Source of the DNA: an uncultured Methanosarcinales archaeon
GTDB lineage: Archaea; Nanobdellota; Nanobdellia; Woesearchaeales; JACPBV01
Direction: 5' to 3'
NCBI GenBank assembly: GCA_964492935.1
Contig: CAZBLF010000009.1
Coordinates: 1 to 35,648 of the forward strand
Length of the DNA: 35,648 bases
Part shown: positions 1 to 31,120 of the stretch, piece after piece
Position numbering within the stretch: the first letter of the stretch is position 1
Layout of the letters: each line of letters starts with the position of its first letter
Translations under genes and position numbers: made by a program
The notes under the pieces: model-generated
Told to the model about the DNA's origin: nothing
What the model saw: only the letters and a program-made list of their open reading frames with translations
Database searches by the model: none

Positions 1-813
1 AGAGGCGAACCTGGTGTTGCAGATGAACCTCAACATGTTAAACAGGGCGAGGTTACTTCGGCTGTTTTTGATGCGATGGGGATTGCACATGCAGTGTTGC
101 CGGATACTATGGAGGATGCTGCTGAATGTGTTGAGAAAGCTTTGGCTAGTGCTCAGGAACATTCTGCTCCTTATGCAATTCTTGTTAAGAAAGGGACCTT
201 TGAATCGTATTCTGGTAAGGCGTCTGCGGGTTCTGGTAGCATGACGCGAGAGGAGGCTTTACGAATGATTGTTGATGCGATTGGAGATAGTGTTGTTGTT
301 TCTACTACTGGGAAAACTTCACGCGAGGTGTATGAGTTGCGAGAAGCAAAAGGCCAGGATCACGCTCATGATTTTTTAACGGTTGGTTCGATGGGCCATG
401 CTTCTTCGATTACTTTGGGTATTGCACTTGAACAGAAAAAGCAGGTATACTGTTTAGATGGTGATGGTGCGTTTATCATGCATATGGGCAGTGCCGCGGT
501 GATTGGGGCGCAGTCGTGTAAGAACTTCAAACATATAGTGATTAATAATGGGGCTCATGATTCAGTTGGTGGTCAACCTACGGCGGGTGCGGATGTTGCG
601 CTTGGTGCTATTGCAAAGGATTGTGGGTATGTTGCTATTTATACTGCTGACGATGAGAAATCGTTGAAAGATGCGCTCAGTGAGCTTGCTTTAAGTGAAG
701 GCCCTTCATTCTTAGAAATTAGGGTGAAGAAAGGTGCTCGCTCGGATTTGGGTCGGCCTACGAGTACGCCTGCCGATAATAAGAAGGCGTTTATGGAGTT
801 TCTACAGAAATGA
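1..813 (+). CDS. ppd: Phosphonopyruvate decarboxylase (5' end lies outside the window)
   Basis: Frame 1 is open from base 1 and reads RGEPGVADEPQHVKQG, a Ppd-type motif. It also has STTGKTSRE, FLTVGSMGHASSI, the ThDP motif DGDGA...NNGAHDSVGGQPT and a C-terminal DLGRP. pepM is nearby. Confidence 0.95.
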   Translation, partial: RGEPGVADEPQHVKQGEVTSAVFDAMGIAHAVLPDTMEDAAECVEKALASAQEHSAPYAILVKKGTFESYSGKASAGSGSMTREEALRMIVDAIGDSVVVSTTGKTSREVYELREAKGQDHAHDFLTVGSMGHASSITLGIALEQKKQVYCLDGDGAFIMHMGSAAVIGAQSCKNFKHIVINNGAHDSVGGQPTAGADVALGAIAKDCGYVAIYTADDEKSLKDALSELALSEGPSFLEIRVKKGARSDLGRPTSTPADNKKAFMEFLQK

Positions 814-1940
814 GTCATGAAATTCTTTCTGGGTATGGTAGTATTGAGCAGCTTTCTGGAATCTTAAAGGAGAGCGCTCCGAAACACATCTTGTTGGTGA
901 CGGGCGAGCAATCGTATGTCTCGTGTGGTGCAGAGAAATCTCTTGAACCGTTGCTCGCGCCTTATGCATATACACGCTTTTCTGATTTTGAGGTTAATGT
1001 TAAGTTAACAGATTTAGAACGAGGTATTGATCTTGCTGCCCGGCATCAATGTGACTTTGTGATTGGTATTGGTGGTGGAAGTGTGATGGATATGGCTAAG
1101 GCTATTGCTTTGTTAGCTGGACAGGAAGGTAGCCTGGAGGCAGTCATCAAGGGCGATGCTGAGATTGTTGGCAGAGACATTGGTTCGGTGATGATTCCTA
1201 CGACAGCTGGAACGGGAAGTGAGTCTGATAGGTATTCTGTTGTTTATGTGGGTAAAACTAAGTATTCGTTGACTCATGATTCGAATCTGCCTGATTATGC
1301 TATTTTAGATGCGACCTTTACTAGCGATCTTCCGAAACCGATTACTGCGGTAACGGGAATGGATGCGGTGGCGCAGGCCATTGAAAGCTATTGGTCTGTG
1401 AAGTCAACTGACGCTTCTCGTGCATTGAGCAAGCAGGCGTTGGAGTTGGGATTAGCGCATCTGGAGGGTGCGGTTAATAGTCCTACCCAGGAACATAGAG
1501 AGCAGATGTTGATTGCTGCGAACCTTGCTGGACAGGCGATTCATATTGCTAGTACGACGGCGCCACACGCGGTATCGTATCCGATGACTTCTTACTTTGA
1601 GGTTGCGCATGGCCAGGCGGTTGGTGTAACGTTACCTTCATTCTTTGAATATAATTGTGGTGTGGATGCTGATAACGTTCAGAACGGAATTTCGGTCGAG
1701 GATGCGCAGCAACGGATGCAGGAATTACTTGAGATTCTGGGTGTTGAAACGGGTAAAGAAGCAAATGTGAAATTGACTGCCTTGATGAAGTCAATTGGTT
1801 TAGATACTACGTTGTCTGCCTTAGGTGTTACCGATACTGATGTTGTTGTTAAGCATGGTTTCAACCCGGCACGAATGGGAAATAATCCTCGCAAGGTTGC
1901 TGAGGGCGATTTGAAGACATTATTGGCTGGTTTGCACTAG
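810..1940 (+). CDS. Group III (iron-containing) alcohol dehydrogenase, phosphonoacetaldehyde reductase-like (PhpC/FomC type)
   Basis: Motifs GGGSVMD, IPTTAGTGSE, DAVAQAIES, TTAPHAVSYP, HGQA and NNPR. ATGA overlap with the ppd stop. Confidence 0.88.
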   Translation: MSHEILSGYGSIEQLSGILKESAPKHILLVTGEQSYVSCGAEKSLEPLLAPYAYTRFSDFEVNVKLTDLERGIDLAARHQCDFVIGIGGGSVMDMAKAIALLAGQEGSLEAVIKGDAEIVGRDIGSVMIPTTAGTGSESDRYSVVYVGKTKYSLTHDSNLPDYAILDATFTSDLPKPITAVTGMDAVAQAIESYWSVKSTDASRALSKQALELGLAHLEGAVNSPTQEHREQMLIAANLAGQAIHIASTTAPHAVSYPMTSYFEVAHGQAVGVTLPSFFEYNCGVDADNVQNGISVEDAQQRMQELLEILGVETGKEANVKLTALMKSIGLDTTLSALGVTDTDVVVKHGFNPARMGNNPRKVAEGDLKTLLAGLH

Positions 1941-1950
1941 TTTTATAAAA
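1941..1950 (+). promoter_or_regulatory. Archaeal TATA box candidate for the 1972 gene
   Basis: TTTTATAAAA 22-31 nt upstream of ATG 1972. Confidence 0.5.
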
Positions 1951-1971
1951 ACAGATTAACTTCTTGAGGTT

Positions 1972-3354
1972 ATGGGAAAACCTAATATTGTGTACATCAT
2001 GATTGATGCGTGTAGGGCGCAGGCATTAGGATGTTATGGGTTTTCTAAGAATGTTTCTCCCAACATTGATGCGTTGGCGAAAAAAGGTTTATTGTGTAAG
2101 CAGGCGTTTTCATCGCATACCGTAACTGATCATTCTCGTATTTCTTTATTGGGTGGACGGCACCTGATTCCTGAAGAGAAGCTTGATTTTATTGTGACTC
2201 AGGATGTTATTGATCGCTTTTTTGAATCTGGTGGGAAGTTTCTACAGGAGTATCTGCAGGATGCAGGATATCATACGCAATCGTTCAAGGAATTGAAGGG
2301 TTGGAGAGGACAGGGTTTTGATGTTGTTGCTACCGATAGAAAAAGTAAAAAGAAATTTGTGCAGAGTGTTGCGAGCATGGTTAATAGAATTCCACTCGTT
2401 TCTTCTGTGGCGAAGCATGTCTTTTACAAGGGTCTTCCGAAAAAGATGACGGATGCCGTAAGACGAACGGTGGGTGGAGAACAAGAGACAAATGATGCTG
2501 TTAGATTTTTAAAAAGGCAGGATGGGAAGAAGCCATTTTTCATGTATCTGGAATATAAGAGTGCACATATGCCGTATGCGGTGGATGAACCCTTTGCAAC
2601 GCGATTTAGAGAGGATGACGATCGGTTGTTTTTTGATGTGATTAAGGAGCGGAATTTTTCTAAGGAATTGTTGGCGTTTTACAAGACGGTGTTTGATCCT
2701 CGTGAAACGATGGCAGGTATTATTGGTCGATATTATGGTGCGATTGCGTATATTGATAGTTTGGTGGGGCGTGTTGTTGAAGCTTTGGATGAGACTGGGT
2801 TGCGGGAAAATACTCTTATTGTTCTAACGGCAGATCATGGTGAAAGTTTAATTGAACACGATATCTTTTTTGAACATTATGGATTATATGATGTTACTAC
2901 GCAGGTGCCCTTGATTATTTCGGGAAAGGGTTTTTCAGGTAGTCAGGACGGACTGGTGCAGCTTGAGGATGTGGTTCCTACATTGTTGAAGGCTGCCGGT
3001 ATTGCGCATGATGCGGATGCGTTTGATGGTTTTGATGTGGTATCGGGAAAGGGTCGCGATTTTGTGTTTATGGAGGAGTCTTTCATGCAGCGGAAGCAGG
3101 CTCTGCGGGATGCTCGCTATAAATTAATCATGGCTCCTAGTCGAAAGGAAGCTACTTGTGTTCGGACTGGTGCTGTACAGGGTGGCGTGGTGGAATTATA
3201 TGATCTGATTGCTGATCCATTAGAGGAACATTCTCTTGTAAAAGAGAAACAGGATGTTGTTGTTCGAATGGCCACCCAATTACGGCAGACGGTTGATGTA
3301 ATGAAAACGAGAGAGGAGAAGCGGCGCATTGCGATGCGTCTAGAATCACTATGA
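1972..3354 (+). CDS. Sulfatase-fold / alkaline phosphatase superfamily protein with Thr at the nucleophile position
   Basis: PNIVYIMIDACR, SPNIDALA, TVTDHSRISLLGG (T where sulfatases have CxPxR), HMPY, TADHGE, VPLII and ELYDLIADPLE. No signal peptide or TM segment seen. Confidence 0.85.
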   Translation: MGKPNIVYIMIDACRAQALGCYGFSKNVSPNIDALAKKGLLCKQAFSSHTVTDHSRISLLGGRHLIPEEKLDFIVTQDVIDRFFESGGKFLQEYLQDAGYHTQSFKELKGWRGQGFDVVATDRKSKKKFVQSVASMVNRIPLVSSVAKHVFYKGLPKKMTDAVRRTVGGEQETNDAVRFLKRQDGKKPFFMYLEYKSAHMPYAVDEPFATRFREDDDRLFFDVIKERNFSKELLAFYKTVFDPRETMAGIIGRYYGAIAYIDSLVGRVVEALDETGLRENTLIVLTADHGESLIEHDIFFEHYGLYDVTTQVPLIISGKGFSGSQDGLVQLEDVVPTLLKAAGIAHDADAFDGFDVVSGKGRDFVFMEESFMQRKQALRDARYKLIMAPSRKEATCVRTGAVQGGVVELYDLIADPLEEHSLVKEKQDVVVRMATQLRQTVDVMKTREEKRRIAMRLESL

Positions 3355-4445
3355 AAAAGAAAAATGTGCTCTTTTTGTTATTAGATGGTATTCGCTCGGA
3401 TAGAATTTCGAGGTGTCCGTATTTGACTTCGGTGTTGAAGAAAGGTACTTATTTTCCTAACATGATCACGAGTGCTCCGTATACGCTCGGAGCGGTACAT
3501 TCTCTGTTAACGGGTTTGTATCCGTATAAGCACGGTGTTAATGGGTATCACAAGATGTTTGCGTATCGGAAAAATGCATGTAAGCATATTGGCCAATATC
3601 TGCAGGATGCTGGCTATTACACGGGATGGAATATGGTTAACAAAAATCTTGCACCTCAGGAAGGTTTTGATTCGGTGTCTACGCATGATGAGATGCATGA
3701 TGATTTGTTTAGTGCTCACTCTTCGATTCTGGACTCGGTGAAGGATAAGCCGTTTTGTTTATTGTTACAATACAGTAAGGTGCATGCCACGTATGTGAAT
3801 ACGTATCTGAAGTCGGAGGAGGATTATTTTGGAAACGTGGAAAAGAACGTTGCTGCATATAACTCTGCGCTGGATGATTTAGATTCGTATCTGAAGAAGA
3901 TGTTTAGTTATTTGAAAGATACTGGGTTGATGGAGGATACGATTGTGGTGGTGTTCTCTGATCATGGCACATCGAACGGTGAAAAGAAAGGGGAGAAATT
4001 TTACGGAGCGTTTACGTATGATAGTACGATCAAGATTTTTTGTTCGATTTTTATGCCGGGAATGCAGGCAAAGGAGATTGGGGCGCAAGTCTCTCTTATT
4101 GATGTGCTGCCGACCTTGCTTGAGGAGTTGGATATTGCTCCGGATGCTGGATTTGAGGAAATTCAGGGTAAGTCTTTGTTTCCTTTTATCTCGGGGACTG
4201 AAGATAAAGATAGGGTTGCGTTTACTGAAACTGGTGGTTTAACGGGGCCGTGGCCTTCACCGGAAAAGCATAATGTCTTTTCGATGCGGATGGATGGGTT
4301 TAAGGTGGTTAAGACACCGGATGGATGGGAATTGTATAATCTACATAAGGATCCTTTAGAACTTGATAACTTGGCCTCTACCGAGAAAAAGTTGTTGTCG
4401 ATGTTGCAGCCGTTGCTACAGAAGCATATTGATGAGATGTCTTAG
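3351..4445 (+). CDS. Second sulfatase-fold / alkaline phosphatase superfamily protein with Thr nucleophile
   Basis: NVLFLLLDGIR, SAPYTLGAVHSLLTGLYP, FSDHG, LIDVLPTL and ELYNLHKDPLE. ATGA overlap with the previous gene. Confidence 0.85.
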   Translation: MKKKNVLFLLLDGIRSDRISRCPYLTSVLKKGTYFPNMITSAPYTLGAVHSLLTGLYPYKHGVNGYHKMFAYRKNACKHIGQYLQDAGYYTGWNMVNKNLAPQEGFDSVSTHDEMHDDLFSAHSSILDSVKDKPFCLLLQYSKVHATYVNTYLKSEEDYFGNVEKNVAAYNSALDDLDSYLKKMFSYLKDTGLMEDTIVVVFSDHGTSNGEKKGEKFYGAFTYDSTIKIFCSIFMPGMQAKEIGAQVSLIDVLPTLLEELDIAPDAGFEEIQGKSLFPFISGTEDKDRVAFTETGGLTGPWPSPEKHNVFSMRMDGFKVVKTPDGWELYNLHKDPLELDNLASTEKKLLSMLQPLLQKHIDEMS

Positions 4446-4645
4446 TCAATATATCCCATTTCTTTGAGATTTTTTCTGATTTCTTCTTCGTCTGCCTTGG
4501 TTTCAGTAGGTGAATTTTCTTTCGTGTCATCTAGGACTTTTCTTAGGACGAATGCGATATAGTCTTCTGCCGAGGTGAAGTTTGCTTGCTTAGCTTTTTC
4601 TTCTACCTTCTTTAGGAGATCTGCTGGTATCGATATGGTTTTCAT
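4442..4645 (-). CDS. Small CopG/ribbon-helix-helix-like protein with a C-terminal [15 protein letters not shown] tail
   Basis: N-terminal [23 protein letters not shown] pattern is typical of RHH proteins. Its ATG overlaps the pepM stop (ATGA). Confidence 0.75.
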
Positions 4646-5943
4646 TTTGTACCTGGAATTAATTCTAGTATTTCCTTGATGGGGATGCAGTTTTCATCAG
4701 CTTCGAGGGCGCGTCCCTCTTTCAGAATGCTTTGCGCAGTATGCAGCATTGCGGGGTATGCGCTTCGCAGCATTTGATTGGCGTAGATAACCATGTTGAT
4801 GCCTGCTTTTGATAGTGTCTCTTCGGTGACTGAGCTGTAGGTTGAGGGTACTGCGATTAGGGGCACTTTTTTCTCGAATTGCTCGTATGCTTTGCAGAAT
4901 TCTAGGATTTCATTAGGTGTGGTTGATTTACTATGGATCATAATTGCGTCTGCGCCGGCTTCGATGTAGGCTTTAGCCCGGGTTAGTGCATCCTCCATGC
5001 CTGTTTTGAGGATGAGGCTTTCGATTCTGGCGATAATCATGAAGTCTTCGGTGACTTGCGCTTTCTTTCCGATGTGCAGTTTCTTAGAGAAGCCCTCTAT
5101 GGTGTCTTGTTCTTGTTCCTCTGTGTCCTCTAGCAGTGAATTTTTCTTTAATCCCACTTTGTCTTCGATGATGATGGCTGAAACGCCGGTTCTCTCGAGA
5201 GTCTTTACGGTCATCGGGAAATGTTCGATCATTCCGCCGGTATCTCCATCTACGATGATGGGCTTTGTGGTAACGTCAAGAATTTCGTTAATCGTGTTGA
5301 GACGTGAGGTTAAATCTACGTATTCGATATCGGGTTTTCCTTTTGCGGTTGAATCGGTTAGGCTGGAAATCCAGATGCCGTCGAATTCTTTTTTTCCTTT
5401 ATTGGTATCAAGAGCGGTATGTTCGATGATTAATCCGGAGATGCCATTATGTGCTTCTAGTACGCGGACGATTTCGTTGGTACCGAGTAGTCTTCGTAAT
5501 CTCTTTTGACGGAGCTCGGGTGTAGTTCCGACCTCTCGGATTGCTTTTCGTAATAGGGAGGAGGACATGTTCTTGGTGTATTCTGGCTCGATTAACTTCC
5601 CGCCCCATTCGGCTAGGACTTCGATGACTTTAGCGCGCGTTTTCTTTTGTACGCCGGTTTTCCAGTCATCTCCATGGACAACAAAATCGGGTTTTACTTT
5701 TCTGAGATTAGGTTCGTAGTCTAGGGTTTCTTGAGGGATAACCTGGGCAACTCCCTTAATGTTTTCAGCGATCTTCTTTCTATCTTCGAACGGGAGATAG
5801 GGTACTGCCTTATAGGATGCGATGGCCTGGTCGGTTAAGACTCCAACGGTGACTTCTCCATGTTTGGCAGCCTCGCTAATGATATTGAGGTGTCCGGTGT
5901 GGACGATGTCTATGCTGAGACCTACGTAAACTTTTTTGGTCAT
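4642..5943 (-). CDS. pepM: Phosphoenolpyruvate mutase with fused N-terminal cytidylyltransferase (Fom1-like architecture)
   Basis: PepM signature [10 protein letters not shown] (EDK-x5-NS), plus [21 protein letters not shown] and IYAN. The N-terminal ~135 aa has HTGH, HGDDW and MSSS motifs of the TagD-like HxGH cytidylyltransferases. Confidence 0.96.
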
Positions 5944-5965
5944 ACACCTAAGAATAAATAGCGAC

Positions 5966-5998
5966 TTTTAAACCTTTGGATACCGTCAGTTTTATAAA
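5966..5998. promoter_or_regulatory. Divergent archaeal TATA boxes for pepM (-) and the flippase (+)
   Basis: TTTTAAA at 5966-5972 is ~23-29 nt before ATG 5943 on the minus strand. TTTATAAA at 5991-5998 is ~23-30 nt before ATG 6021. Confidence 0.55.
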
Positions 5999-6020
5999 GA
6001 TTGGAGCGCTTATTTAGGGT

Positions 6021-7448
6021 ATGAGCGTAGCGAAAAAGATTGCCAAGAACACGGGAATTTTGTTTACTTCTGAGGTTGTGAGCAATATTTTTTCGTTCTT
6101 TTTGGTTATTGTTATTTCTCATTACTTGGGAGATAGTGGATTCGGGAAATATACGTTTGCGTTCGCTTTTGTCAATATTGCACTCATTTTTTCGCATTTG
6201 GGGATGCGGACGTATGTATTTAGAGAGATTTCTAAACATCCTGACCAGACCAAGAAGTTCTTGGATAATGTGTTTACGCTTCGTTTCTTTTTGACGTGGA
6301 TTGTGTATGGTGTTGCGTTATTGATTGCATTTACTATTCCTGAGGCTCGAGAGATTATTATTATTTTGGTATTGGCCATGATTCATGAGCAGTTGTATCT
6401 GTTTGTGCGGTTGGCGAATACGGTGTTTAATGCTCACGAACGCAATCGTTTTGTTCTGACTTCTAGGACCTTGCTGAAAAGTCTTGGTTTGGTGATTGGA
6501 GCTTCGGTTTTGTTCTTAGGGTATGGTTTGATAGGATTGATGCTTGGGTTGATTGCGGTGCAGGTTGTTGTTTGTGGATATTGTTATTCTGTTTTGAAAA
6601 GAAATTTTGTTACGCCGTCCTTGAGCTTTGATTTTGGATATTGGAAGAAGTTGGTTAACGCCTCTCTTCCTTTTTGGTTTACTTTTCTATTTCAAAGGAT
6701 CTATTACCGGATTGATACTATTATGTTAGGGAGTATGACTACGTTTTCGGCTACGGGATTGTATGGTGCTTCGTTTTCGGTTGTGAATGCGTTATCGTTT
6801 ATTCCGGCTGTTATTATTACTGCTTCGTTTCCCTCTATGTCACGCATGTTTCATACCGATAATAAAGAGAAATTGTCATTCTTGTATCACAAGGTGTTTT
6901 CTTATCTGTTTACGATTGGCTTTCCGGCTGTGATTGGATTGTCGTTGCTGGCTGGCAAGATCATGCCCCTAGTATTTGGTGCTGAGTTTGTTGGTGCTGG
7001 ACCTTTACTTCGGGTGTTGAGTTGGTCCATTCTGTTCATTTTCTTGACTCATCTGCTGGGATATTTATTGAATGCAATTGACCAGCAGAAGAAGTTTACT
7101 ATTGCGACTGCAATTACTGCGTTTGCTAACGTGGGATTAAATCTTCTTTTGATTCCGAGGTTTGGTGCTCTCGGGGCTGCGTATGCTACTGTTTCTACGT
7201 ATGTGGTGTTGTTTTTTTCTCTTTTGTATTTTACTTCCCGTCACGGTTATTCGTTGCCGTTGTTTAGGTTAGTGTGGAGGCCGTTAGTAGCTGGATTGGT
7301 GATGGGTTGGGTTGTTGCTCGAATGATGGAGATGCATCTGTTTGTTGGTGTTTTGGTAGGCGTATTTAGTTTCTTTGGGATACTCTTCTTGCTCGGTGGC
7401 TTGGGTGCGGATGAGAAGAGGTTATTGAAGTCGTTTGTTAAGAAGTGA
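6021..7448 (+). CDS. Wzx/AglR-type oligosaccharide flippase (MOP superfamily)
   Basis: KIAKNT start, YLG..FGKY, IDTIMLG..ATGLY, LNLLLIPRFGALGAAYAT and ~12-14 hydrophobic segments. Confidence 0.93.
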   Translation: MSVAKKIAKNTGILFTSEVVSNIFSFFLVIVISHYLGDSGFGKYTFAFAFVNIALIFSHLGMRTYVFREISKHPDQTKKFLDNVFTLRFFLTWIVYGVALLIAFTIPEAREIIIILVLAMIHEQLYLFVRLANTVFNAHERNRFVLTSRTLLKSLGLVIGASVLFLGYGLIGLMLGLIAVQVVVCGYCYSVLKRNFVTPSLSFDFGYWKKLVNASLPFWFTFLFQRIYYRIDTIMLGSMTTFSATGLYGASFSVVNALSFIPAVIITASFPSMSRMFHTDNKEKLSFLYHKVFSYLFTIGFPAVIGLSLLAGKIMPLVFGAEFVGAGPLLRVLSWSILFIFLTHLLGYLLNAIDQQKKFTIATAITAFANVGLNLLLIPRFGALGAAYATVSTYVVLFFSLLYFTSRHGYSLPLFRLVWRPLVAGLVMGWVVARMMEMHLFVGVLVGVFSFFGILFLLGGLGADEKRLLKSFVKK

Positions 7449-8574
7449 TAAGCGAATCGTAGAATGTTTCTAGCTTTTTCATGAAGAGGTCGTAATCGTA
7501 GTCGTTCATTAGTTTTTGGACTGCTTTGCCTTTTTGCTCTCTCAGCGGTTTGCTGGCGAAGTAGTTCTCAAATATTTTTGCAAGTTGTTCTTTGTTTCTT
7601 GGAATTGAGTATAGTGCGTGTTCTTTGAAGACGCTGGTGAAAGAACCGATATCGGAGAGACAGAGAGGAATGGCGGCTGCGGCTGCCTCATAGACCGATA
7701 TTCCCATGGTTTCGGGGTCTGAATTGTTGACAAAGAGATCGGTTATTGCGAAGATGTTGCGTACTTGTTTATAGTTGAGGCTGCCAGTAAAGATGACCGA
7801 TTCTTGGAGGTTTAGTTTTCTCACGGTGTCTTCAGGGTTTTGAACGTTTTTGAAGCGTTTTGAGGCTTGGTCTTTGTATCTGGGATTATTAAATTGGTTT
7901 GCTCCTACGATGAGGAGTCTTGCTTTGGGATGGTTTCTTTGAAAGATTGCGAATGATTCGATGATGGTGTCTACATTCTTGAACTTTCTGAAATTGGAGA
8001 CTGAGGTGATGATGAAATTGCTTTCTTTGAGATCGTATAGCTTTCTGACTGCTGACTTATTTGCTTGTTCGGTTGCTGAGAAGAAATTTACATCGATTGC
8101 GTGAGGTAGTAGTGTTATCTTGTTTTTGGGGATTCCGTTTTTTTCGTAGATTTCCCTTTCGAATGGAGTAAGTGCGATTATTTTCTTGAACTTTTTCATA
8201 CAGTATAGTGAGAATTTTTTAATTAAGGCGTTAGATCCTAATTCGTAGGTGTGCGGTAGTAAGATGCATTTCTTTCCTGTGAATGGGGAAAGGAGTGCGG
8301 GTAGAAAGGGTCGTAGATTTGCTAGAACTAATTCTACTTCTTTATCTTTCTTTAATGCTCTGAGTAGTTTCCAGGTTGAGGTGAATCTTCTTATTGGTAG
8401 TTTGTCTAGTACTTCGTACTCTTTTTGATTTGGTTTCTTTAACGTCCAGATTTCGCATTGGTAGTTGCGCGCTTGCATGACTTTGATGGGGTTCATGCCG
8501 TAGTGTTCTTTTGCGGAGACTTGCTTACCGGAGGCTTCGTTCCAACCCATTACTATCTGGATAAACTTTTTCAT
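7438..8574 (-). CDS. Glycosyltransferase family 4 (GT-B)
   Basis: KNVDTIIESF and DLFVNNSDPETMGISVYEAAAA (Ex7E motif). ATG 8574 (MKKFIQ) preferred over the TTG at 8625. Confidence 0.88.
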   Translation of the reverse strand: MKKFIQIVMGWNEASGKQVSAKEHYGMNPIKVMQARNYQCEIWTLKKPNQKEYEVLDKLPIRRFTSTWKLLRALKKDKEVELVLANLRPFLPALLSPFTGKKCILLPHTYELGSNALIKKFSLYCMKKFKKIIALTPFEREIYEKNGIPKNKITLLPHAIDVNFFSATEQANKSAVRKLYDLKESNFIITSVSNFRKFKNVDTIIESFAIFQRNHPKARLLIVGANQFNNPRYKDQASKRFKNVQNPEDTVRKLNLQESVIFTGSLNYKQVRNIFAITDLFVNNSDPETMGISVYEAAAAAIPLCLSDIGSFTSVFKEHALYSIPRNKEQLAKIFENYFASKPLREQKGKAVQKLMNDYDYDLFMKKLETFYDSLITS

Positions 8575-8644
8575 ATTGAGGATGATTGCAATTTCATTTA
8601 ATAATGTTTGTAGAATGGGCGTCAATAGGGTTCTAGTATCAGAA

Positions 8645-9616
8645 TTACTTTTTCATCAATCTTTCTTGTGTTTTGAGGTCTTCGTCGACCATCTTCTCTA
8701 CGAGTTCTTTGAACTTTACCTTGGGTTCCCAGTTGAGTACTTTCTTTGCTTTGGATGAGTCTCCGACTAGAAGATCTACTTCTGCTGGACGTAGGAACTT
8801 TTTATCGATTTTTACGTGGTCCTCCCAGTTTAGGCCTACGTGTTCGAATGCTGCCTGGCAGAGTTCCTTAACGGAATGCATCTCTCCTGTTGCAATGACG
8901 AAATCGTCTGCTTCGTCGTGTTGGAGAATTAACCACATGGCTTCGGCGTAATCTCCTGCGAATCCCCAGTCTCTTTTTGCGTCTAGGTTTCCTAGGAAAA
9001 GGTCTTTTTGTAATCCTAATTTAATTTTTGCTACGGATTCGGTTACTTTCTTGGTTACGAATTGTTGGCCTCTTCTGGGAGATTCGTGATTGAATAAGAT
9101 TCCATTTGCTGCGAATAAGTTGAAGCTTTCTCTGTAGTTCTTGGTGATCCAGTGGGCATATACTTTGGATACTCCATACGGAGATCGTGGATAAAAGGGA
9201 GTGGTCTCGGTTTGCGGTGTTTCTTGTACTTTTCCGTACATTTCACTTGAGCCTGCCTGATAGAATTTGATTTTAGGATTAACTATTTTGATTGCTTCTA
9301 GCATTCTGGTTGTACCGAGAGCGGTAATTTCTGCTGTTAACAATGGTTGAGACCAGGACGCGGGAACGAAGCTTTGTGCCCCTAGATGGTAGATTTCGTC
9401 GGGTTGGACGTCTTTGATGGTGTTGATGATTGAACTTAAATCTGTGAGATCTGCGCTAATCAGGTTGATTTTGCTTTTAATGTGATTAATTCTTTCGAAC
9501 GTTTCGGTTGAGGCCCTTCTATACATACCATAGACTTCGTATCCCTTTTCTAATAGGAATTCTGCTAGGTAGGAGCCGTCTTGGCCTGTAATTCCGGTGA
9601 TTAATGCTTTCTTCAT
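8645..9616 (-). CDS. gmd: GDP-mannose 4,6-dehydratase
   Basis: [52 protein letters not shown] and RPAEVDLL. Confidence 0.98.
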
Positions 9617-9696
9617 TGATGTTTGTGAACTGGGAATTCTTTTTAAATGTTCCTTAATAGATACGCTTTTATAGGCTTTTTCACACTTGTTGTAGA

Positions 9697-10650
9697 ATGA
9701 ATAAGGCGTTGAGAACGATGTTGCAGCTGAGTGTTGGTATTCTACTGTTTGTATTTCTGTTTAGTCAGGTAGGTATTGGTGCGTTCTGGGAGGTGTTGAA
9801 GACTATCAATTTGTGGTGGTTGATTCCTTCTGTTTTGATGACGATTCCTACTCAGGTGTTGGCTGCTAGTAATTTTTCGGTGTTGTTTTCGGCATTGGGT
9901 AAGAACAGTTCGTTTTCGCACCTGTTTAGATCGGGAATGCTGAGTTTTTCCATTGGTATGGTTGCTCCCGGTAAGTTGGGAGATTTGTCATTGGTTTCTT
10001 TGTTGCGCGAAGGCGATATTGGGTATGGCGATACGTTGGCAGCTACGGTTGCTGATAAGATGATTAGTTTATTTGTGACTGGAGTGTTGGCATTGCTGGG
10101 AATTGCTTGGTTTTTGGACTTGCAGACGTTTTGGATCGTCTTCGGAGTGGGTGCTGGTGCATTCTTAGTTGGAATGTTGGGAATTAGTTCATCAAGGATT
10201 CGGGGTTTGGTGAAGAAATATATTTTACGAAGGCACGCAAAGCACTTTGATGGGTTTTATTCAAATCTGCGGTTGCTTGTACGTGAGAAGAAACTTTATT
10301 TGTTGGTGAATATTGTACTGACACTTATGAAGTTCTTTAGTGGCTTTATCGGGACGTGGTTCTTGTTTAGGGCGTTTGATGTGCAAGTCTCGTTGTTAGT
10401 TATCTTATTCGTTACGGCGATTACGAGCCTTCTCAGTTTAATCCCTATCAGTATTTCTGGATTAGGAGTGAGAGAGGGAGTGGGGACGTATTTGTATACT
10501 CTTGTTGGTGGCGTTTCGGTTGTGTTGAGTGCGAATGTTGTCATTATTGCAACGGTTCGGAAGTATGTGGTTGCGTTGATTTATTATTTTATGAATATTC
10601 ACTTGCTTGAGCGTTTACAGAAAACGATGCAGGATGTGAGACGAGGATGA
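9697..10650 (+). CDS. Lysylphosphatidylglycerol-synthase TM / UPF0104 (AglD2-like) flippase-like membrane protein
   Basis: PGKLGD motif, DK before a TM, the [13 protein letters not shown] signature and multiple TMs. Confidence 0.85.
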
Positions 10651-11642
10651 AGGAGACGTTAATCGTTGCTCCGGGAAAGGGATGGCCACGTAATGAGGCG
10701 TGGACTAAAGAGATTGCTTTGGTTTCTGAGAAACTGGGGATTGATGTGGTTGCTACTGGTAAGATTCGTTGGTTGTTTTCTCGAAAAGGTAGGTATTTGA
10801 TTATTCGTCATAGCTTTTTGTTGTATGGTGTGTTTGCTTTGATTGTGTTTTTTAGGTCGTTGCGTTATAAGCAAGTTATATTGGAATGTACACCAGGGAG
10901 TTTGTATTTTAGATTGCTTTCGGGTTTAATTGGTCGGAAGAAGATTGTGTATCATTTACGGGATCCTGAATGGAGGATTTCTTCTGACGAGTTATCTGGT
11001 TTTAAGTCGGTGGTGGTTCCTTTTGCTATCAAGAAGGCTCCCGGTGCAACTGTATTTCCGTTTGGGATTGATCTTGCGAAATATAGCGTGGCTCGGAAGA
11101 AGCACAACGGTTTTACGGTGCTCTTTGCTAGCGCTCCGTTGCAGCATCATGACTTTGAACAGATTTTTGATGAGAAAGGGGTGTTGTTATTGCTTGAATC
11201 CTTTGCGCAGCTTGATGTTAAGGGTAAAAAATTAGTTTTGATCTGGAGAGGGGCGTATCACTCTGAGTTGAAAGGCATTATACGAAAACTGTATAGTGAT
11301 TTAGACATTGAGGTGGTAAATGAGGTTGTTGATTTGGCTTCTTATTATGCTCGGGCCGATGTAACAGTGTTATGCGCACAGTCGCGCGAACATACTCCGG
11401 CATATCCCTCTTCGGCGATGGAATCTGTTGCGTGTGGGACGCCAGTGATTGTTTCTAGGGTGTTGCCGATTAGTTCTGTTGTTTCCAAGGAGCGGTTTGG
11501 TGTTGTTTGTGATGCTGATTCTCTCACTGATGCTTTGGAGACGGTTCAGAAAAAGAATGCTTCGTTTGTTGCTGCATGTAAGAGTCGTCGATCGGTGTTT
11601 GATGTTAGTAAGAGTTTAGATCATTTGAAGAAGGGTCTTTAG
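10647..11642 (+). CDS. Divergent GT4-like glycosyltransferase
   Basis: PFGIDL, KGVLLLLESF and YYARADV..PAYPSSAMESVACGTPVIVS. Confidence 0.75.
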   Translation: MKETLIVAPGKGWPRNEAWTKEIALVSEKLGIDVVATGKIRWLFSRKGRYLIIRHSFLLYGVFALIVFFRSLRYKQVILECTPGSLYFRLLSGLIGRKKIVYHLRDPEWRISSDELSGFKSVVVPFAIKKAPGATVFPFGIDLAKYSVARKKHNGFTVLFASAPLQHHDFEQIFDEKGVLLLLESFAQLDVKGKKLVLIWRGAYHSELKGIIRKLYSDLDIEVVNEVVDLASYYARADVTVLCAQSREHTPAYPSSAMESVACGTPVIVSRVLPISSVVSKERFGVVCDADSLTDALETVQKKNASFVAACKSRRSVFDVSKSLDHLKKGL

Positions 11643-11656
11643 AGTTCTTTTGTTGG

Positions 11657-13141
11657 CTAGATTTCTTTCCAGAGGGTATTTTTTGCTTTGTTGATGACTT
11701 CTTGTAGTGGCATATTGGCATCGATGTCTACGATCTTGGTTGATTTTCCGTATTGGAGTGTTTTGAGGGTGTTGCTCTTGGTTTGGAGTTCGTTAAGGGT
11801 GATGTCGGACTTTCTCTTTACGGCGATGTTGGGTGAAACGTTTAGTCTGAGTACAAGATCGGGGGCGTTGTTGAATGCTAGCTCGTAGGTTTTGAATTCC
11901 CAGCGTGCTAGTTTTTTCATTATTGATGATTTGCTCTGGAGGTGGTCCATCAGAAGAGGGCCGTCGCTCAGATATTGGATATTCTTTTGTGGGAAGCGGT
12001 CGCAGATGATGATCATGCCGCGATTTCGTGCTTTGATCATCTTTTTTAGTTTAATTCTTTTTTCTCTGGCTAGAAGAAGTGCCCAGGTAATGAGGCCTAC
12101 CTTTTTTATTGCGTGTAGAGGAGAGGTGCTGTTTGCTTTTTCTTGTTTATAGACTTTTTCGATGTTGCCTGAGGAGTTTGAGGTGAAGATACTTGCCAGG
12201 AGCTTGAGGGGTAGGCGTAATAGGGATATGGTGCCTTGGCCGCTGCCGAAATAGATGGGGATTGGATTGAACTTCCAGGAAAGCCATTTTGTTAATTCAT
12301 TTGTTATGGTGGACTTTCCTGATCCGTCGGTGCCGATGCAGGCGATTACCTTTCCTTTTTTTCCAACACGGAGTCCAGCGGTTGTAGGTTGATGGAAATA
12401 GCGCTGGTTTATTTTGTGAGTTATCCAGATAAGCTCTCGTTTCCAGGATTGGAGGGTTGCATCGATTAGATTGTGTTGCTTATGTGAGTGTAGTCTTGGT
12501 TTTATGATGCGTCTTAGTTTTGTTAGTGAGAATAATGAGGGTTTAAGACTGACGATATGTTGTGCTGCTTTTTTTCCTAATACTTTTTGTGCGTACTTTC
12601 TCAGTTTCTCTTTATTTGATCGTTGCTGTAGCCAATTGAACTCCCGCTTGTCGTCTTTTGAAAAGTAGATTTGTCCTAGGAAGAAGAGGGGATAATCTCT
12701 GCACCGAATTTTGAGTGCGGAACGTGTTAGTAGTAAGATGAGCTCTAGATTGGGGTCTGCTATCGTGATATTTGTTGCGGGATCGTTGGTTGCGGTGTTT
12801 AATAGTAGGGACTCCCACGGTAGGATGTAGCCTTTCAGATGTTTTTGTCCTAGACGCAAATAATCGTGGAGGTGGATGTGAGAGAGTTGCTTTGTTTCGG
12901 CATCCATTCCGATCCAATGCTCCAATCCCTTGTATTCCATAGTGTCGGGTCCGGAAAAGAGTTGAAATCCTGACTTTTGAAGAATGGTTTTTGCTGAAGT
13001 TGAGGTGTTTTTAGCTATCAGAATATCTAGATCGGTCTTTCCTTGTAATCCTGCTTTGAGATGCTCATTGCTCTTCCAATGGCAGTACTGGATATTGGCT
13101 TTTTGGAGGGCTTTGAACAGCTTTTTGTTGATGGTTAACAT
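11657..13141 (-). CDS. Nucleotidyltransferase-fold domain fused to a thymidylate-kinase-like P-loop domain
   Basis: N-terminal YCHWKSNEHL..GKTDLDIL..HIHLH (Pol-beta-like DxD). C-terminal IGTDGSGKST, IICDRF and PDLVLRLNVSP. ATG 13141 preferred over the GTG at 13183. Confidence 0.75.
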   Translation of the reverse strand: MLTINKKLFKALQKANIQYCHWKSNEHLKAGLQGKTDLDILIAKNTSTSAKTILQKSGFQLFSGPDTMEYKGLEHWIGMDAETKQLSHIHLHDYLRLGQKHLKGYILPWESLLLNTATNDPATNITIADPNLELILLLTRSALKIRCRDYPLFFLGQIYFSKDDKREFNWLQQRSNKEKLRKYAQKVLGKKAAQHIVSLKPSLFSLTKLRRIIKPRLHSHKQHNLIDATLQSWKRELIWITHKINQRYFHQPTTAGLRVGKKGKVIACIGTDGSGKSTITNELTKWLSWKFNPIPIYFGSGQGTISLLRLPLKLLASIFTSNSSGNIEKVYKQEKANSTSPLHAIKKVGLITWALLLAREKRIKLKKMIKARNRGMIIICDRFPQKNIQYLSDGPLLMDHLQSKSSIMKKLARWEFKTYELAFNNAPDLVLRLNVSPNIAVKRKSDITLNELQTKSNTLKTLQYGKSTKIVDIDANMPLQEVINKAKNTLWKEI

Positions 13142-13186
13142 TGTTTTTGCATTCGATAAGCGGTGTTTTTTACAAGTCTCCACTCA

Positions 13187-13270
13187 GTAAAAGACAAATA
13201 TCTTTATAATTTGTTTGTCTTTTACAACATAGACGACGATAATAATCAAACTTATGTCGTCCTCTATGTT
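13187..13270. repeat. Two abutting inverted repeats in a divergent intergenic region
   Basis: Perfect 12-bp IR GTAAAAGACAAA (13187-13198) / TTTGTCTTTTAC (13214-13225). Imperfect IR AACATAGA..GAC..ATAA / TTAT..GTC..TCTATGTT at 13226-13270. Confidence 0.75.
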
Positions 13271-13330
13271 ATAATAAACTTTATATAACTTGTGGGCATT
13301 TTCCCCTATAAGTAAGGGTGGTATGAAACT

Positions 13331-31090: not shown

Positions 31091-31120
31091 AAATATAAAT
31101 GCGAATCACTTACAATTTAC

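What the first reader, a model, noticed from the sequence alone, without database searches (positions are those of the whole stretch)
1..7448. Complete CMP-hydroxyethylphosphonate module heading an archaeal (DPANN-like) surface-glycan island
Seen: ppd, an Fe-ADH, a cytidylyltransferase-PepM fusion and an adjacent Wzx flippase, with glycosyltransferases downstream. Established: PepM, Ppd and a PhpC/FomC-type Fe-ADH convert PEP to 2-hydroxyethylphosphonate (HEP), and the HxGH cytidylyltransferase domain of Fom1 in Streptomyces fosfomycin biosynthesis makes CMP-HEP. Inference: this organism makes CMP-HEP and attaches C-P groups to its N-glycan or surface polysaccharide. That is a costly investment for a lineage usually described as metabolically reduced, and could give a phosphatase-resistant coat. 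No AEP transaminase or MpnS is visible in the window, which favours HEP, though genes upstream of base 1 are unseen.
Basis: partly seen in the sequence, partly recalled or inferred. Interest (0 to 1): 0.8.

Follow-up and report, generated by a model that had tools for sequence, protein, structure and literature searches.

The report
Archaeal hydroxyethylphosphonate surface-decoration gene cluster
A tiny marine DPANN archaeon carries the well-known three-enzyme route to the carbon-phosphorus compound 2-hydroxyethylphosphonate, in CMP-activated form, inside a cell-surface sugar gene island; the chemistry is ordinary, and only the enzymes that attach the compound remain unclear.

Summary
The genes are real, but the description is incomplete. 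The window is a whole contig. Another contig of the same genome (C29) overlaps its start and supplies the ppd 5' end and the unseen upstream genes: a GT4 glycosyltransferase and a divergent CDP-alcohol-phosphotransferase-like gene. The genome is archaeal, 1.15 Mb, with Woesearchaeota/Nanoarchaeota relatives.

I found no AEP transaminase, MpnS/HepD or B12-radical-SAM gene in the 84.8%-complete genome, so CMP-2-hydroxyethylphosphonate is the likely end of the soluble pathway. Its acceptor, glycan or lipid, is not established.

The cassette is common:
- PepM passes its curated cut-off in 21 of 401 genomes sampled from the phylum.
- Cytidylyltransferase-like (PF01467)-Ppm fusions make up 23.6% of known Ppm enzymes (Rice 2019).
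- This scan has already reported the same cassette on other DNA, including another DPANN archaeon.

The fresher leads are a conserved pair of cytoplasmic sulfatase-fold proteins with Thr/Ser in place of formylglycine, and CDP-alcohol-type transferases lacking the fourth signature Asp. Verdict: a new member of a known kind, of modest interest.

The parts
1..813 (+). Phosphonopyruvate decarboxylase (Ppd), C-terminal 270 codons. The first ~99 codons lie on contig C29 (13516-13851), which overlaps the window start by 39 nt.
   Evidence: TIGR03297 338.8 bits against cut-off 312.5. PF02775. TPP_enzyme_N at the C29 end. The overlap is identical at 37 of 39 nt. The orthologue in L055 is a single 370-aa gene.
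810..1940 (+). Fe-dependent alcohol dehydrogenase, the presumed phosphonoacetaldehyde reductase that makes 2-HEP. Its start overlaps the ppd stop (ATGA).
   Evidence: PF00465 and PF25137. The best NCBIfam hit is Phn_Fe-ADH TIGR03405 at 170.8 bits, below the 423.7 cut-off. A homologue lies near PepM in 17 of 20 related loci, including the two inspected loci that carry MpnS, at 46% identity. The overlap is shown.
1972..3354 (+). Sulf1: a soluble sulfatase/PMH-fold alkaline-phosphatase-superfamily protein with Thr52 where sulfatases have the formylglycine Cys. Role open (phosphonyl transfer or phosphonate-ester/anhydride hydrolysis).
   Evidence: PF00884 145.3 bits. Best PDB hits are 4upi and 4upl, with several phosphonate monoester hydrolases also listed; T aligns with C. 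No [CS]xPxR motif. No TM segment. D12 and D288-H289 are invariant in 5 homologues. The fold search returns sulfatases and PMH. Only two close relatives were found, at 90% and 68% identity.
3351..4445 (+). Sulf2: a second soluble sulfatase-fold protein, with Thr45 at the nucleophile position. Its start overlaps the Sulf1 stop (ATGA).
   Evidence: PF00884 107.8 bits and PF01663 60.7 bits. T aligns with the Cys of 6hr5. Across 10 homologues the column holds T in 6 and S in 4, and D12 and D204-H205 are invariant. The model has pLDDT 86.5; TMq is 0.79-0.81 to choline sulfatase, PMH and YidJ.
4642..5943 (-). Fom1-type bifunctional protein: an N-terminal cytidylyltransferase (HTGH at residue 15) and a C-terminal PEP mutase ([10 protein letters not shown] at residue 260).
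   Evidence: PF01467 and PF13714. TIGR02320 406.2 bits against 319.55. 5x3d Fom1 CyTase domain at E 5.1e-54. Homologues of about 432 aa at 65-79% identity in archaea and bacteria.
5944..6020 (.). 77-nt divergent intergenic region between the fusion gene and wzx. The 99-codon ORF at 5940-6239 (-) overlaps wzx and has no family hit, so it is probably not a gene.
6021..7448 (+). Wzx/MOP-family flippase.
   Evidence: PF01943 99.8 bits and PF13440 77.6 bits. About 10 hydrophobic segments. A Polysacc_synt gene lies within 4.5 kb of the cassette in 8 of 20 related loci.
7438..8625 (-). GT4 glycosyltransferase, the first of the downstream glycan genes. The island continues to about 30900.
   Evidence: PF00534 91.2 bits. 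Further glycosyltransferases and sugar-nucleotide enzymes.

Best explanation
This is a cell-envelope phosphonate-decoration cluster of a marine DPANN (Woesearchaeota/Nanoarchaeota-type) archaeon.

The proposed steps are:
1. The PepM domain converts PEP to phosphonopyruvate.
2. Ppd decarboxylates phosphonopyruvate to phosphonoacetaldehyde.
3. The Fe-ADH reduces phosphonoacetaldehyde to 2-hydroxyethylphosphonate (HEP).
4. The N-terminal Fom1-type cytidylyltransferase domain of the PepM protein makes CMP-HEP from CTP.

These four steps are assigned by family membership and homology. None is shown biochemically.

The inferred continuation is that the phosphonyl group is passed from CMP-HEP to a membrane-bound acceptor built by the co-operonic GT4: a lipid-linked sugar or a glycolipid. 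The candidate transferases are the divergent CDP-alcohol-phosphotransferase-like membrane protein encoded two genes upstream of ppd on contig C29, the Thr-nucleophile sulfatase-fold pair Sulf1/Sulf2, or both. The adjacent Wzx would then flip the product to the outside.

The functional unit is a six-gene operon, CDP-OH-like - GT4 - Ppd - Fe-ADH - Sulf1 - Sulf2, that spans the C29|C9 assembly break, plus the CyT-PepM gene.
For: Core enzymes:
- PepM and Ppd score above their curated equivalog cut-offs.
- The EDKxxxxxNS and HxGH motifs are present.
- The CyT domain matches Fom1 CyTase 5x3d at E 5.1e-54.
- Rice et al. 2019 (passages read) state that Fom1's CyTase makes CMP-HEP, and that PF01467-Ppm fusions are 23.6% of Ppm enzymes.

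HEP as the endpoint (G000 is 84.8% complete):
- The best TIGR03301 AEP-transaminase match is 45.1 bits against a cut-off of 360.8.
- There is no MpnS/HepD match. The same query finds G068, G224 and G157.
- No B12-binding domain passes its cut-off, and tblastn finds no LicD homologue.

Fe-ADH role:
- A homologue lies near PepM in 17 of 20 related loci, and in 14 of 14 loci with a Fom1-type fusion.
- These include L036 and L037, which also encode an MpnS homologue (6b9s, E 3.6e-165). MpnS uses HEP as its substrate (Acker 2022 passage).

Operon and junction:
- The start/stop overlaps and the 23-33 nt gaps are shown.
- An independent Nanoarchaeota-labelled MAG locus (L055) has GT4 - Ppd - Fe-ADH - Sulf1 - Sulf2 in the same order at 68-77% identity. 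Its CyT-PepM (78%) and a CDP-OH-like gene (41%) are adjacent.
- Contigs from two other studies run 984 and 2126 nt past window base 1.

Envelope destination, from families within 4.5 kb of the cassette in 20 related loci (135 of 148 neighbours scanned):
- CDP-OH_P_transf in 10 of 20.
- Polysacc_synt/Wzx in 8 of 20.
- Sulfatase/Phosphodiest in 6 of 20.
- Glycosyltransferases in most.

Sulf2 orthologues (E <= 1e-60) occur in 9 of 400 other genomes of the phylum. Four of those 9 have PepM, against 26 of 400 overall. One of the 9, G360, is flagged unpublished.
Against: - The Fe-ADH is far below the phosphonate Fe-ADH equivalog cut-off (170.8 against 423.7 bits), and its PDB relatives are generic group-III ADHs.
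- No transferase is identified with confidence. The CDP-OH-like protein scores only 30.8-31.6 bits on PF01066, and its signature reads DxxDGxxSK..G..E...H in place of DxxDGxxAR..G..D...D.
- That protein has no close orthologue in 400 sampled genomes. The best matches are 25-31% identical, and only 4 of the 16 genomes with matches are PepM-positive.
- Sulf1 and Sulf2 are soluble, with no signal peptide or TM segment. By my recall, the known transferases of this superfamily (EptA, LtaS, OpgB) are membrane-anchored and extracytoplasmic, and soluble members are usually hydrolases.
- Five of the 9 genomes with Sulf2 orthologues showed no PepM.
- With 15% of the genome unassembled, a missing tailoring gene cannot be excluded.
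- Nothing here distinguishes a glycan acceptor from a lipid acceptor.
Confidence: 0.6

Rival explanations
1. The product is a phosphonolipid rather than a phosphonoglycan. The CDP-alcohol-phosphotransferase-like protein would transfer the hydroxyethylphosphonyl head group from CMP-HEP to diacylglycerol, archaeol or a glycolipid. By my recall, this is how CMP-AEP is used for phosphonolipids in eukaryotes.
For: - A CDP-OH_P_transf gene lies in the operon, and one is present in 10 of 20 related loci.
- Li & Horsman 2022 (passages read) report that PepM clusters with CDP-OH genes ('Burkholderiales_CDP-OH', Group 1) and with multiple sulfatases (Group 4) were classed as predicted phosphonolipid clusters by Yu et al.
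- G000 has six PF01066 matches.
- Earlier notes of this scan, which I did not check, report bacterial-type lipid genes in the same genome.
Against: - The cluster sits inside a glycan island next to a Wzx flippase and many glycosyltransferases.
- A GT4 is conserved in the operon.
- The CDP-OH-like protein lacks two of the signature Asp residues.
- According to the same paper, no phosphonolipid has been characterised from the bacterial CDP-OH groups.
Confidence: 0.22
2. Cytidylylation is transient, as in fosfomycin biosynthesis. Sulf1 and Sulf2 would be hydrolases that release or recycle the phosphonate (CMP-HEP or HEP esters), so the output is a free small phosphonate or a remodelled decoration rather than a stable conjugate made by them.
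For: - Sulf1 and Sulf2 are soluble, and their fold and best PDB matches are hydrolases, including phosphonate monoester hydrolases 2vqr, 2w8s, 4upk and 4uph.
- The metal ligands and a Thr/Ser nucleophile are conserved.
- The reference title cited in Rice 2019 calls Fom1's cytidylylation of HEP 'transient'.
Against: - No Fom3-type, HppE-type or other small-molecule tailoring gene was found in the genome.
- The GT4, CDP-OH-like and Wzx context is conserved.
- Sulf2 orthologues elsewhere sit in glycan loci beside nucleotidyltransferases.
Confidence: 0.1
3. The final phosphonate is not HEP. A branch enzyme such as an AEP transaminase, MpnS or a methyltransferase would be encoded in the unassembled ~15% of the genome, or the Fe-ADH would have another substrate.
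For: - Genome completeness is 84.8%.
- The Fe-ADH is below the equivalog cut-off.
- Relatives carry MpnS (3 strong matches in 400 genomes), B12-radical-SAM genes (7 of 20 loci) or an NTP_transf-aminotransferase fusion (L040, and L069 in G261) next to the same cassette.
Against: - In relatives, these branch genes lie within a few kb of PepM.
- Here both flanks are visible, 13.8 kb upstream on C29 and 28 kb downstream, and they contain none.
- The closest relative, L055, also lacks them beside its HEP operon.
Confidence: 0.08

Closest known systems
Fom1 / Fom2 / FomC, the early steps of fosfomycin biosynthesis in Streptomyces wedmorensis (Cho et al. 2017, as cited in Rice et al. 2019, PMC6697681; passages read)
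   Same: Both have a CyTase-PepM fusion with HxGH, a Ppd and an Fe-ADH giving CMP-HEP. The CyT domain matches the Fom1 CyTase structure 5x3d at E 5.1e-54.
   Different: No Fom3-type B12-radical-SAM, HppE or FomD-type gene was found. The context is glycosyltransferases and a flippase, not antibiotic tailoring. The host is an archaeon.
HEP- and methylphosphonate-decorated exopolysaccharide clusters: Stackebrandtia nassauensis (HEP conjugate) and Nitrosopumilus maritimus (methylphosphonate adduct), as listed by Li & Horsman 2022 (PMC8942020; passages read)
   Same: Both use the PepM-Ppd-PhpC-like ADH route to HEP in a cell-surface context. The N. maritimus case shows that archaea do this.
   Different: MpnS is not found here. 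The organism is DPANN, not a thaumarchaeon. I did not compare the gene complements directly, because Metcalf 2012 was not held.
Phosphonyl-tailoring (Pnt) pathways with PntC cytidylyltransferases making CMP-AEP (Rice et al. 2019)
   Same: Both use nucleotidyl activation of a phosphonate by a domain fused to Ppm, followed by transfer to cell-wall glycans.
   Different: PntC belongs to the PF12804/LicC type and prefers AEP; here the domain is PF01467 and no AEP transaminase is found. Those bacterial loci carry LicD-like transferases, and none was found here.
'Burkholderiales_CDP-OH' (Group 1) and sulfatase-rich Selenomonas (Group 4) predicted phosphonolipid clusters (Yu et al. 2013, as described in Li & Horsman 2022)
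   Same: PepM clusters that carry CDP-alcohol phosphatidyltransferase genes or several 'sulfatase' genes.
   Different: Those clusters are AEP-based and bacterial. Here the core is HEP-based and both accessory types occur together with a GT4 and a Wzx. The CDP-OH-like protein has E and H where the third and fourth signature Asp residues normally stand.
S1 sulfatases and phosphonate monoester hydrolases of the alkaline phosphatase superfamily (for example 6g5z, 2vqr/9gve, 2w8s, 4upi)
   Same: Sulf1 and Sulf2 have this fold (Sulf2 model TMq 0.79-0.81). The metal-binding Asp and Asp-His positions are conserved.
   Different: There is no C/S-x-P-x-R formylglycine motif; Thr52 and Thr45 (Thr or Ser in homologues) occupy the nucleophile position. 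The proteins are shorter (364 and 460 aa) and cytoplasmic by sequence.

Membership tests
PEP mutase (TIGR02320 / PF13714) | Score above the curated equivalog cut-off | tested here: met
   406.2 bits against 319.55.
PEP mutase (TIGR02320 / PF13714) | EDKxxxxxNS catalytic motif, which separates Ppm from isocitrate-lyase relatives (criterion quoted in Rice 2019) | tested here: met
   [10 protein letters not shown] at residue 260.
Fom1-type bifunctional CyTase-PepM | N-terminal PF01467 cytidylyltransferase domain with HxGH, fused to PepM | tested here: met
   PF01467 at residues 12-133. HTGH at residue 15. 5x3d at E 5.1e-54.
Fom1-type bifunctional CyTase-PepM | CTP:HEP cytidylyltransferase activity | not testable with these tools
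   Needs an enzyme assay. PF01467-Ppm fusions also occur in AEP clusters (Li & Horsman), so the substrate is inferred from the absence of an AEP transaminase.
Phosphonopyruvate decarboxylase (TIGR03297) | Score above the equivalog cut-off, with both TPP-binding domains | tested here: met
   338.8 bits against 312.5 on the truncated ORF. The N-terminal TPP domain lies at the end of C29.
Phosphonate-pathway Fe-ADH (TIGR03405, PhpC/FomC-like) | Score above the equivalog cut-off | tested here: not met
   170.8 bits against 423.7, although it is the best-scoring NCBIfam model. Membership of the general Fe-ADH Pfam families is met.
Formylglycine-dependent (S1) sulfatase | C/S-x-P-x-R motif at the nucleophile position | tested here: not met
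   The motif is absent from both proteins. Thr aligns with the Cys of PDB sulfatases, and homologues have Thr or Ser there. The fold itself is met.
CDP-alcohol phosphotransferase (PF01066) | Pfam score above the gathering cut-off | tested here: met
   30.8 bits against 22. It is the weakest of the six matches in the genome.
CDP-alcohol phosphotransferase (PF01066) | Full signature DxxDGxxAR...G...D...D (signature recalled from the literature) | tested here: not met
   The own protein reads D-x2-D-G-x2-S-K-x8-G-x3-E-x3-H. L055 keeps A-R but also has E and H. Of the 19 proteins examined, which include both of G000's C29 paralogues and L055's two, 5 keep an Asp at the fourth position. No NCBIfam equivalog is reached (at most 32.5 bits against cut-offs of 170 or more).
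Wzx / MOP flippase | Polysacc_synt domain above cut-off and a polytopic membrane protein | tested here: met
   PF01943 99.8 bits. About 10 hydrophobic segments.
DPANN archaeon (Nanoarchaeota/Woesearchaeota in the names given by sources) | Archaeal rRNA, a small genome and marker-gene relatives in that group | tested here: met
   Archaeal SSU at 1445 bits and LSU at 2209 bits are the best of their clans. The genome is 1.15 Mb at 84.8% completeness. All named MetRS relatives are from the group. I built no marker-gene phylogeny.

The most novel reading that the evidence does not exclude
Sulf1 and Sulf2 may represent an uncharacterised class of cytoplasmic sulfatase-fold enzymes that use a Thr/Ser nucleophile. 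They would move CMP-activated small phosphorus head groups onto lipid-linked envelope precursors, working with CDP-alcohol-type membrane transferases that lack the usual catalytic Asp. The head group would be HEP here, imported phosphonate in the PepM-less relative G175, and possibly a phosphoramidate in G230.

A bolder version is that CMP-HEP is polymerised head-to-tail into a teichoic-acid-like poly(hydroxyethylphosphonate).

Either way, small marine DPANN cells would be an overlooked source of the HEP esters found in marine high-molecular-weight dissolved organic phosphorus.
Probability: 0.2. Interest if true: 0.6.

Novelty: new member of a known kind. Interest (0 to 1): 0.35.

Why it matters
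[quoted passage not shown] 2022, passages read). This stretch occurs almost unchanged in marine, seawater and hydrothermal-vent metagenomes: 15 runs hold at least half of the sampled words. The organism is therefore a widespread small archaeon that very probably makes CMP-HEP.

For DPANN biology, it adds a phosphatase-resistant envelope decoration to lineages whose surface is central to attaching to hosts. Such genes occur in about 1 in 20 sampled genomes of the phylum, so they are not exceptional.

For enzymology, the core is textbook. The open and testable question is which protein transfers the phosphonyl group. The conserved Thr-type sulfatase-fold pair and the atypical CDP-alcohol-type transferases are concrete candidates.

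Tried and rejected
Searches of G000 (84.8% complete) that found nothing:
- AEP transaminase: TIGR03301 gave 45.1 bits against 360.8. The only strong Aminotran_5 match is on C2.
- MpnS/HepD: no match.
- B12-binding radical SAM: nothing over the cut-off.
- LicD and NPP-type Phosphodiest homologues of relatives: none by tblastn.
- PhnD-type phosphonate-binding protein: none.

Other steps that led nowhere or fell short:
- The genome-contig scan with the fusion protein gave only 19 loci, because the peptide patterns were too specific. It cannot serve as a distribution survey.
- The search for orthologues of the CDP-OH-like protein in the phylum gave only 25-31% identical matches in 16 of 400 genomes (one of them the unpublished G360) and no clear link to PepM.
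- The B12-radical-SAM proteins of relatives could not be tied to Fom3. The best PDB hit was 6fd2 at E 2.7e-13, so 'Fom3-like' rests on domain architecture only.
- The Fe-ADH has only generic PDB relatives.
- The careful tree search did not finish. Only a quick tree of 39 rows was obtained. In it DPANN and bacterial fusion proteins interleave; it shows no donor or direction of transfer.
- Expression: no RNA holder was listed. All four runs laid were DNA contigs.
- Metcalf et al. 2012 (PMC3466329) is not held. My recollection that the N. maritimus cluster contains 'sulfatase' and nucleotidyltransferase genes is therefore unverified.

Literature on DPANN phosphonate synthesis:
- 'phosphonate' / 'DPANN' / 'pepM': the one work listed that holds all three terms (preprint and journal version; journal version read) mentions DPANN only for phosphate-transporter genes.
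- 'phosphonate' + 'Woesearchaeota': 7 papers, none with either term in title or abstract.
- 'phosphoenolpyruvate mutase' / 'phosphonoglycan' with DPANN names: none of the 20 listed papers holds either phosphonate term.
- I found no description, but supplements and subscription journals were not searched.

Not attempted: I did not run complex prediction for Sulf1-Sulf2, because I make no binding claim.

Full report
**What is in the sequence**

The window is the whole of contig C9 of a 1,151,202-base, 57-contig genome. Six-frame ORFs scanned against Pfam and NCBIfam give, for 1-7448:

| Coordinates | Strand | Assignment | Evidence |
|---|---|---|---|
| 1-813 | + | Ppd, 5'-open ORF, profile positions 89-360 of 360 | TIGR03297 338.8 bits, cut-off 312.5 |
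| 810-1940 | + | Fe-ADH | PF00465 137.1 bits, PF25137 111 bits |
| 1972-3354 | + | 'Sulfatase' PF00884 (Sulf1) | 145.3 bits |
| 3351-4445 | + | 'Sulfatase' PF00884 (Sulf2) | 107.8 bits |
| 4642-5943 | - | CTP_transf_like + PEP_mutase fusion | TIGR02320 406.2 bits, cut-off 319.55 |
| 6021-7448 | + | Polysacc_synt/Wzx | PF01943 99.8 bits |

- The ppd stop overlaps the ADH start, and the Sulf1 stop overlaps the Sulf2 start, each as ATGA.
- The fusion protein has HTGH at residue 15 and [10 protein letters not shown] at residue 260.
- Downstream lie many glycosyltransferase and sugar-nucleotide genes.
It skipped the two sulfatase-family genes, and the ppd in the window is only a fragment.

**The unseen upstream genes**

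A search of the genome for the N-terminal TPP domain found a 3'-open frame at the very end of contig C29. The last 39 nt of C29 match window 1-39 at 37 of 39 positions, in frame. That gives a Ppd of about 369 residues.

Pfam on C29 shows:
- A GT4 glycosyltransferase directly upstream of ppd (12460-13482).
- Before it, a CDP-OH_P_transf-family membrane protein (11615-12436). Its probable true start is Met52, judged against the 226-residue orthologue in L055.
- Further upstream, an HTH-pyruvate kinase/ATP-sulfurylase/APS-kinase operon, a RuBisCO-like/kinase/nucleotidyltransferase operon, a second CDP-OH_P_transf gene, and sugar-modifying genes.

Gaps between the operon genes are 23-33 nt.

The join has independent support. 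Locus L055, from a MAG labelled Nanoarchaeota, carries GT4 - Ppd (one 370-residue gene) - Fe-ADH - Sulf1 - Sulf2 in the same order at 68-77% identity. Its CyT-PepM (78%) and a CDP-OH-like gene (41%) lie next to them. Contigs of two other metagenome studies run 984 and 2126 nt beyond window base 1.

**Taxonomy**

- Archaeal SSU (1445 bits) and LSU (2209 bits) rRNA genes lie on contig C18 and beat the other models of their clans.
- All contigs share about 42% G+C and an unusually strong GC skew.
- For the methionyl-tRNA synthetase fragment at the far end of the window, every named relative among the 120 listed is Woesearchaeota, Nanoarchaeota, Nanoarchaeia or 'archaeon'.
- The contig is therefore archaeal and DPANN-type. 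I built no marker phylogeny.

**What the pathway makes**

- The CyT domain (residues 5-138) matches the solved CyTase domain of Fom1 (5x3d) at E 5.1e-54. By my count, 82 of 134 aligned positions are identical.
- Rice et al. 2019 (passages read) state that this Fom1 domain makes CMP-HEP from CTP and HEP. They also report that PF01467 domains are fused to 23.6% of Ppm enzymes.
- The branch enzymes that would lead away from HEP were sought in the whole genome and not found (details under Tried and rejected).
- The MpnS query is a homologue from a relative (L037; 6b9s at E 3.6e-165). It gave strong matches in three other genomes of the phylum, so the negative result in G000 is meaningful within its 84.8% completeness.
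- The Fe-ADH does not reach the phosphonate Fe-ADH equivalog cut-off (170.8 against 423.7 bits). Its role rests on context, set out in the next section.

**How common it is**

PepM (TIGR02320) passes its cut-off in 21 of 401 genomes sampled from the same phylum, G000 included. It was found in 0 of 2 genomes of the same family. I fetched 20 of these loci and compared them:

- 14 of 20 have a Fom1-type fusion at 60-70% identity. Five have a PepM-nucleotidyltransferase fusion. In L024 the CyT is a separate gene.
- A Ppd homologue lies nearby in 18 of 20 loci and an Fe-ADH homologue in 17 of 20 (E <= 1e-10). The Fe-ADH is present in 14 of 14 loci with a Fom1-type fusion.
- Two of those loci (L036, L037) also carry MpnS, whose substrate is HEP (Acker 2022).

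Beyond the phylum:
- The fusion protein has relatives of about 432 residues at 65-70% identity in many bacterial phyla.
- A quick tree of 39 sequences interleaves DPANN and bacterial rows. This is compatible with inter-domain transfer, but the direction was not tested.
- Earlier reports of this scan describe the same cassette in other genomes, including another marine DPANN archaeon.

**Who transfers the phosphonate**

Pfam on 135 of the 148 neighbours within 4.5 kb of the cassette in the 20 loci (the 13 longest were dropped) gives these counts:

| Family | Loci (of 20) |
|---|---|
| CDP-OH_P_transf | 10 |
| Polysacc_synt/Wzx | 8 |
| B12-binding radical SAM | 7 |
| Sulfatase/Phosphodiest | 6 |
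| LicD | 1 |
| NTP_transf-aminotransferase fusion | 1 |

*The CDP-OH-like protein*
- It is the weakest of six PF01066 matches in the genome.
- It reaches no NCBIfam equivalog.
- Its signature reads DxxDGxxSK-x8-G-x3-E-x3-H.
- Of the 19 proteins examined, only 5 keep Asp at the fourth signature position. The 19 include the second C29 paralogue and its L055 counterpart, which do not lie next to the cassette and account for 2 of those 5.
- It has no close orthologue in 400 sampled genomes.

*Sulf1 and Sulf2*
- Both have the S1 sulfatase/phosphonate-monoester-hydrolase fold. The Sulf2 model has pLDDT 86.5 and TMq 0.79-0.81. The Sulf1 model has pLDDT 71.4.
- Neither has a C/S-x-P-x-R motif. Thr52 and Thr45 align with the formylglycine Cys of solved sulfatases.
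- In homologues this column holds Thr or Ser, while the metal ligands are invariant.
- Both lack signal peptides and membrane segments.
- Sulf1 is rare: only two close relatives, then 33% identity.
- Full-length Sulf2 orthologues occur in 9 of 400 other genomes of the phylum (one, G360, flagged unpublished). Four of these have PepM, against 26 of 400 overall.

*Sulf2 orthologues in the loci I inspected*
- In G175, which lacks PepM, the orthologue sits in a row with a cytidylyltransferase, a Phosphodiest protein, a B12-radical-SAM protein, a PhnD-type binding protein with its ABC partners, and a Wzx.
- In G230, which has PepM about 38 kb away on the same contig, the orthologue sits beside genes resembling the phosphoramidate (MeOPN) pathway.
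- These enzymes therefore travel with nucleotide-activated phosphorus head groups in glycan loci. Whether they transfer or hydrolyse cannot be decided here.

**Glycan or lipid**

For a glycan:
- The cluster lies next to Wzx and inside a long glycosyltransferase island.
- A GT4 is conserved inside the operon.
- The genome has an AglB/STT3 gene on another contig.

For a lipid:
- CDP-alcohol transferases are lipid head-group enzymes.
- PepM clusters with CDP-OH or multiple sulfatase genes were classed as predicted phosphonolipid clusters (Li & Horsman 2022).
- Earlier notes of this scan, which I did not check, report bacterial-type lipid genes in this genome.

I rate an envelope glycoconjugate as most likely and a phosphonolipid as the main rival.

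**Novelty and verdict**

The core is a textbook Fom1/Fom2/FomC-type HEP module, already annotated in public DPANN MAGs ('phosphoenolpyruvate mutase [Candidatus Woesearchaeota archaeon]'). It is present in about 5% of the phylum.

I found no paper describing phosphonate synthesis in DPANN in three full-text searches. Supplements and subscription journals were not covered.

The stretch is nearly identical in marine, seawater and vent metagenomes of many studies. The organism is therefore a plausible contributor to marine HEP esters.

It is a new member of a known kind. The useful leads are the Thr-type sulfatase-fold pair and the atypical CDP-alcohol-type transferases.

Noticed in passing
whole window and all 57 contigs of G000: The GC skew is very strong on every contig (|0.05|-|0.37|; window +0.219, 0.05-0.36 in 2-kb windows). 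It keeps its sign across genes on both strands, so the compositional asymmetry follows the DNA strand and not the coding strand.
   Followed up: no
L037:5881-7248 (G068), G224:C19:12794-14152, G157:C10:40669-42000: Three relatives in the same phylum encode full-length methylphosphonate synthase homologues (L037 against PDB 6b9s, E 3.6e-165). In the two loci I inspected (L036, L037) the gene lies next to CyT-PepM, Ppd and Fe-ADH; all three genomes are PepM-positive. Some DPANN archaea may therefore make methylphosphonate. The MpnS-versus-HepD determinant residues were not checked.
   Followed up: partly
L065:3301-14385 (G175, no PepM found at E<=1e-30): One gene row holds Aminotran_3, B12-radical SAM, Phosphodiest, a Sulf2 orthologue, a small cytidylyltransferase, a PhnD-type phosphonate-binding protein with ABC ATPase and permease, and an NTP_transferase, with a Wzx directly after it on the opposite strand. 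It looks like import and activation of external phosphonate for surface decoration in a genome without PepM.
   Followed up: partly
L070:2069-10997 (G230): A Sulf2 orthologue and a Phosphodiest protein lie close to, and on the same strand as, a 964-residue CyT + PPDK_N + PEP-utilizers fusion, a Peptidase_C26/GATase and an NTP_transf_3 gene; a Wzx on the opposite strand separates the two groups. By my recall this set resembles the O-methyl phosphoramidate pathway of Campylobacter.
   Followed up: no
L024, L026, L032, L035, L039, L041, L043: B12-binding radical SAM genes, up to three per locus, lie within 4.5 kb of the HEP cassette in 7 of 20 related loci. By recall this is the domain architecture of Fom3, which would suggest C-methylated phosphonates. 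No link to Fom3 could be shown.
   Followed up: partly
L041:15839-19333 (G121): A 1164-residue ORF combines Fe-ADH (40% identical to the window's), a CyT domain (49%) and an NTP_transferase region in one protein.
   Followed up: no
L055:3-1706: The closest relative carries a second PepM, fused to an N-terminal NTP_transf_3 domain (567 residues), about 2.4 kb from its HEP operon. G000 shows only one PepM.
   Followed up: no
contig C29 (L004) 11615-12436, and 18 other proteins of relatives: Most CDP-OH_P_transf proteins next to phosphonate cassettes keep DxxDGxxAR..G...D/E but lack the fourth signature Asp. They have H, S, A, N, G or E there; own and L055 have E...H.
   Followed up: partly
window 11657-13183 (-): A 508-residue protein has only a weak dTMP-kinase-like P-loop region in its C-terminal half. 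A similarly annotated 430-residue protein lies next to the Fe-ADH in L031, but the two were not detectably homologous by BLAST.
   Followed up: no
window 31058-31825 (+); G000:C18:6970-11387: The window contains a free-standing LAGLIDADG_3 ORF. The 23S rRNA match spans 4418 nt for a 2987-position model, which implies large insertions.
   Followed up: no
window 33703-34809 (-) and 32221-33663 (-): An NFACT N-terminal/middle domain protein of only 368 residues is followed on the same strand by a 480-residue ORF with no family hit. This may be a split NFACT gene.
   Followed up: no
contig C29 (L004) 4167-11646: The upstream contig carries an NTP_transferase / His-phosphatase-kinase fusion / RuBisCO-like operon and a wHTH-pyruvate kinase / ATP sulfurylase / APS kinase / PHP operon. 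Other reports of this scan already cover both. No sulfotransferase was seen in the window, although L030 has one beside its HEP cassette.
   Followed up: no
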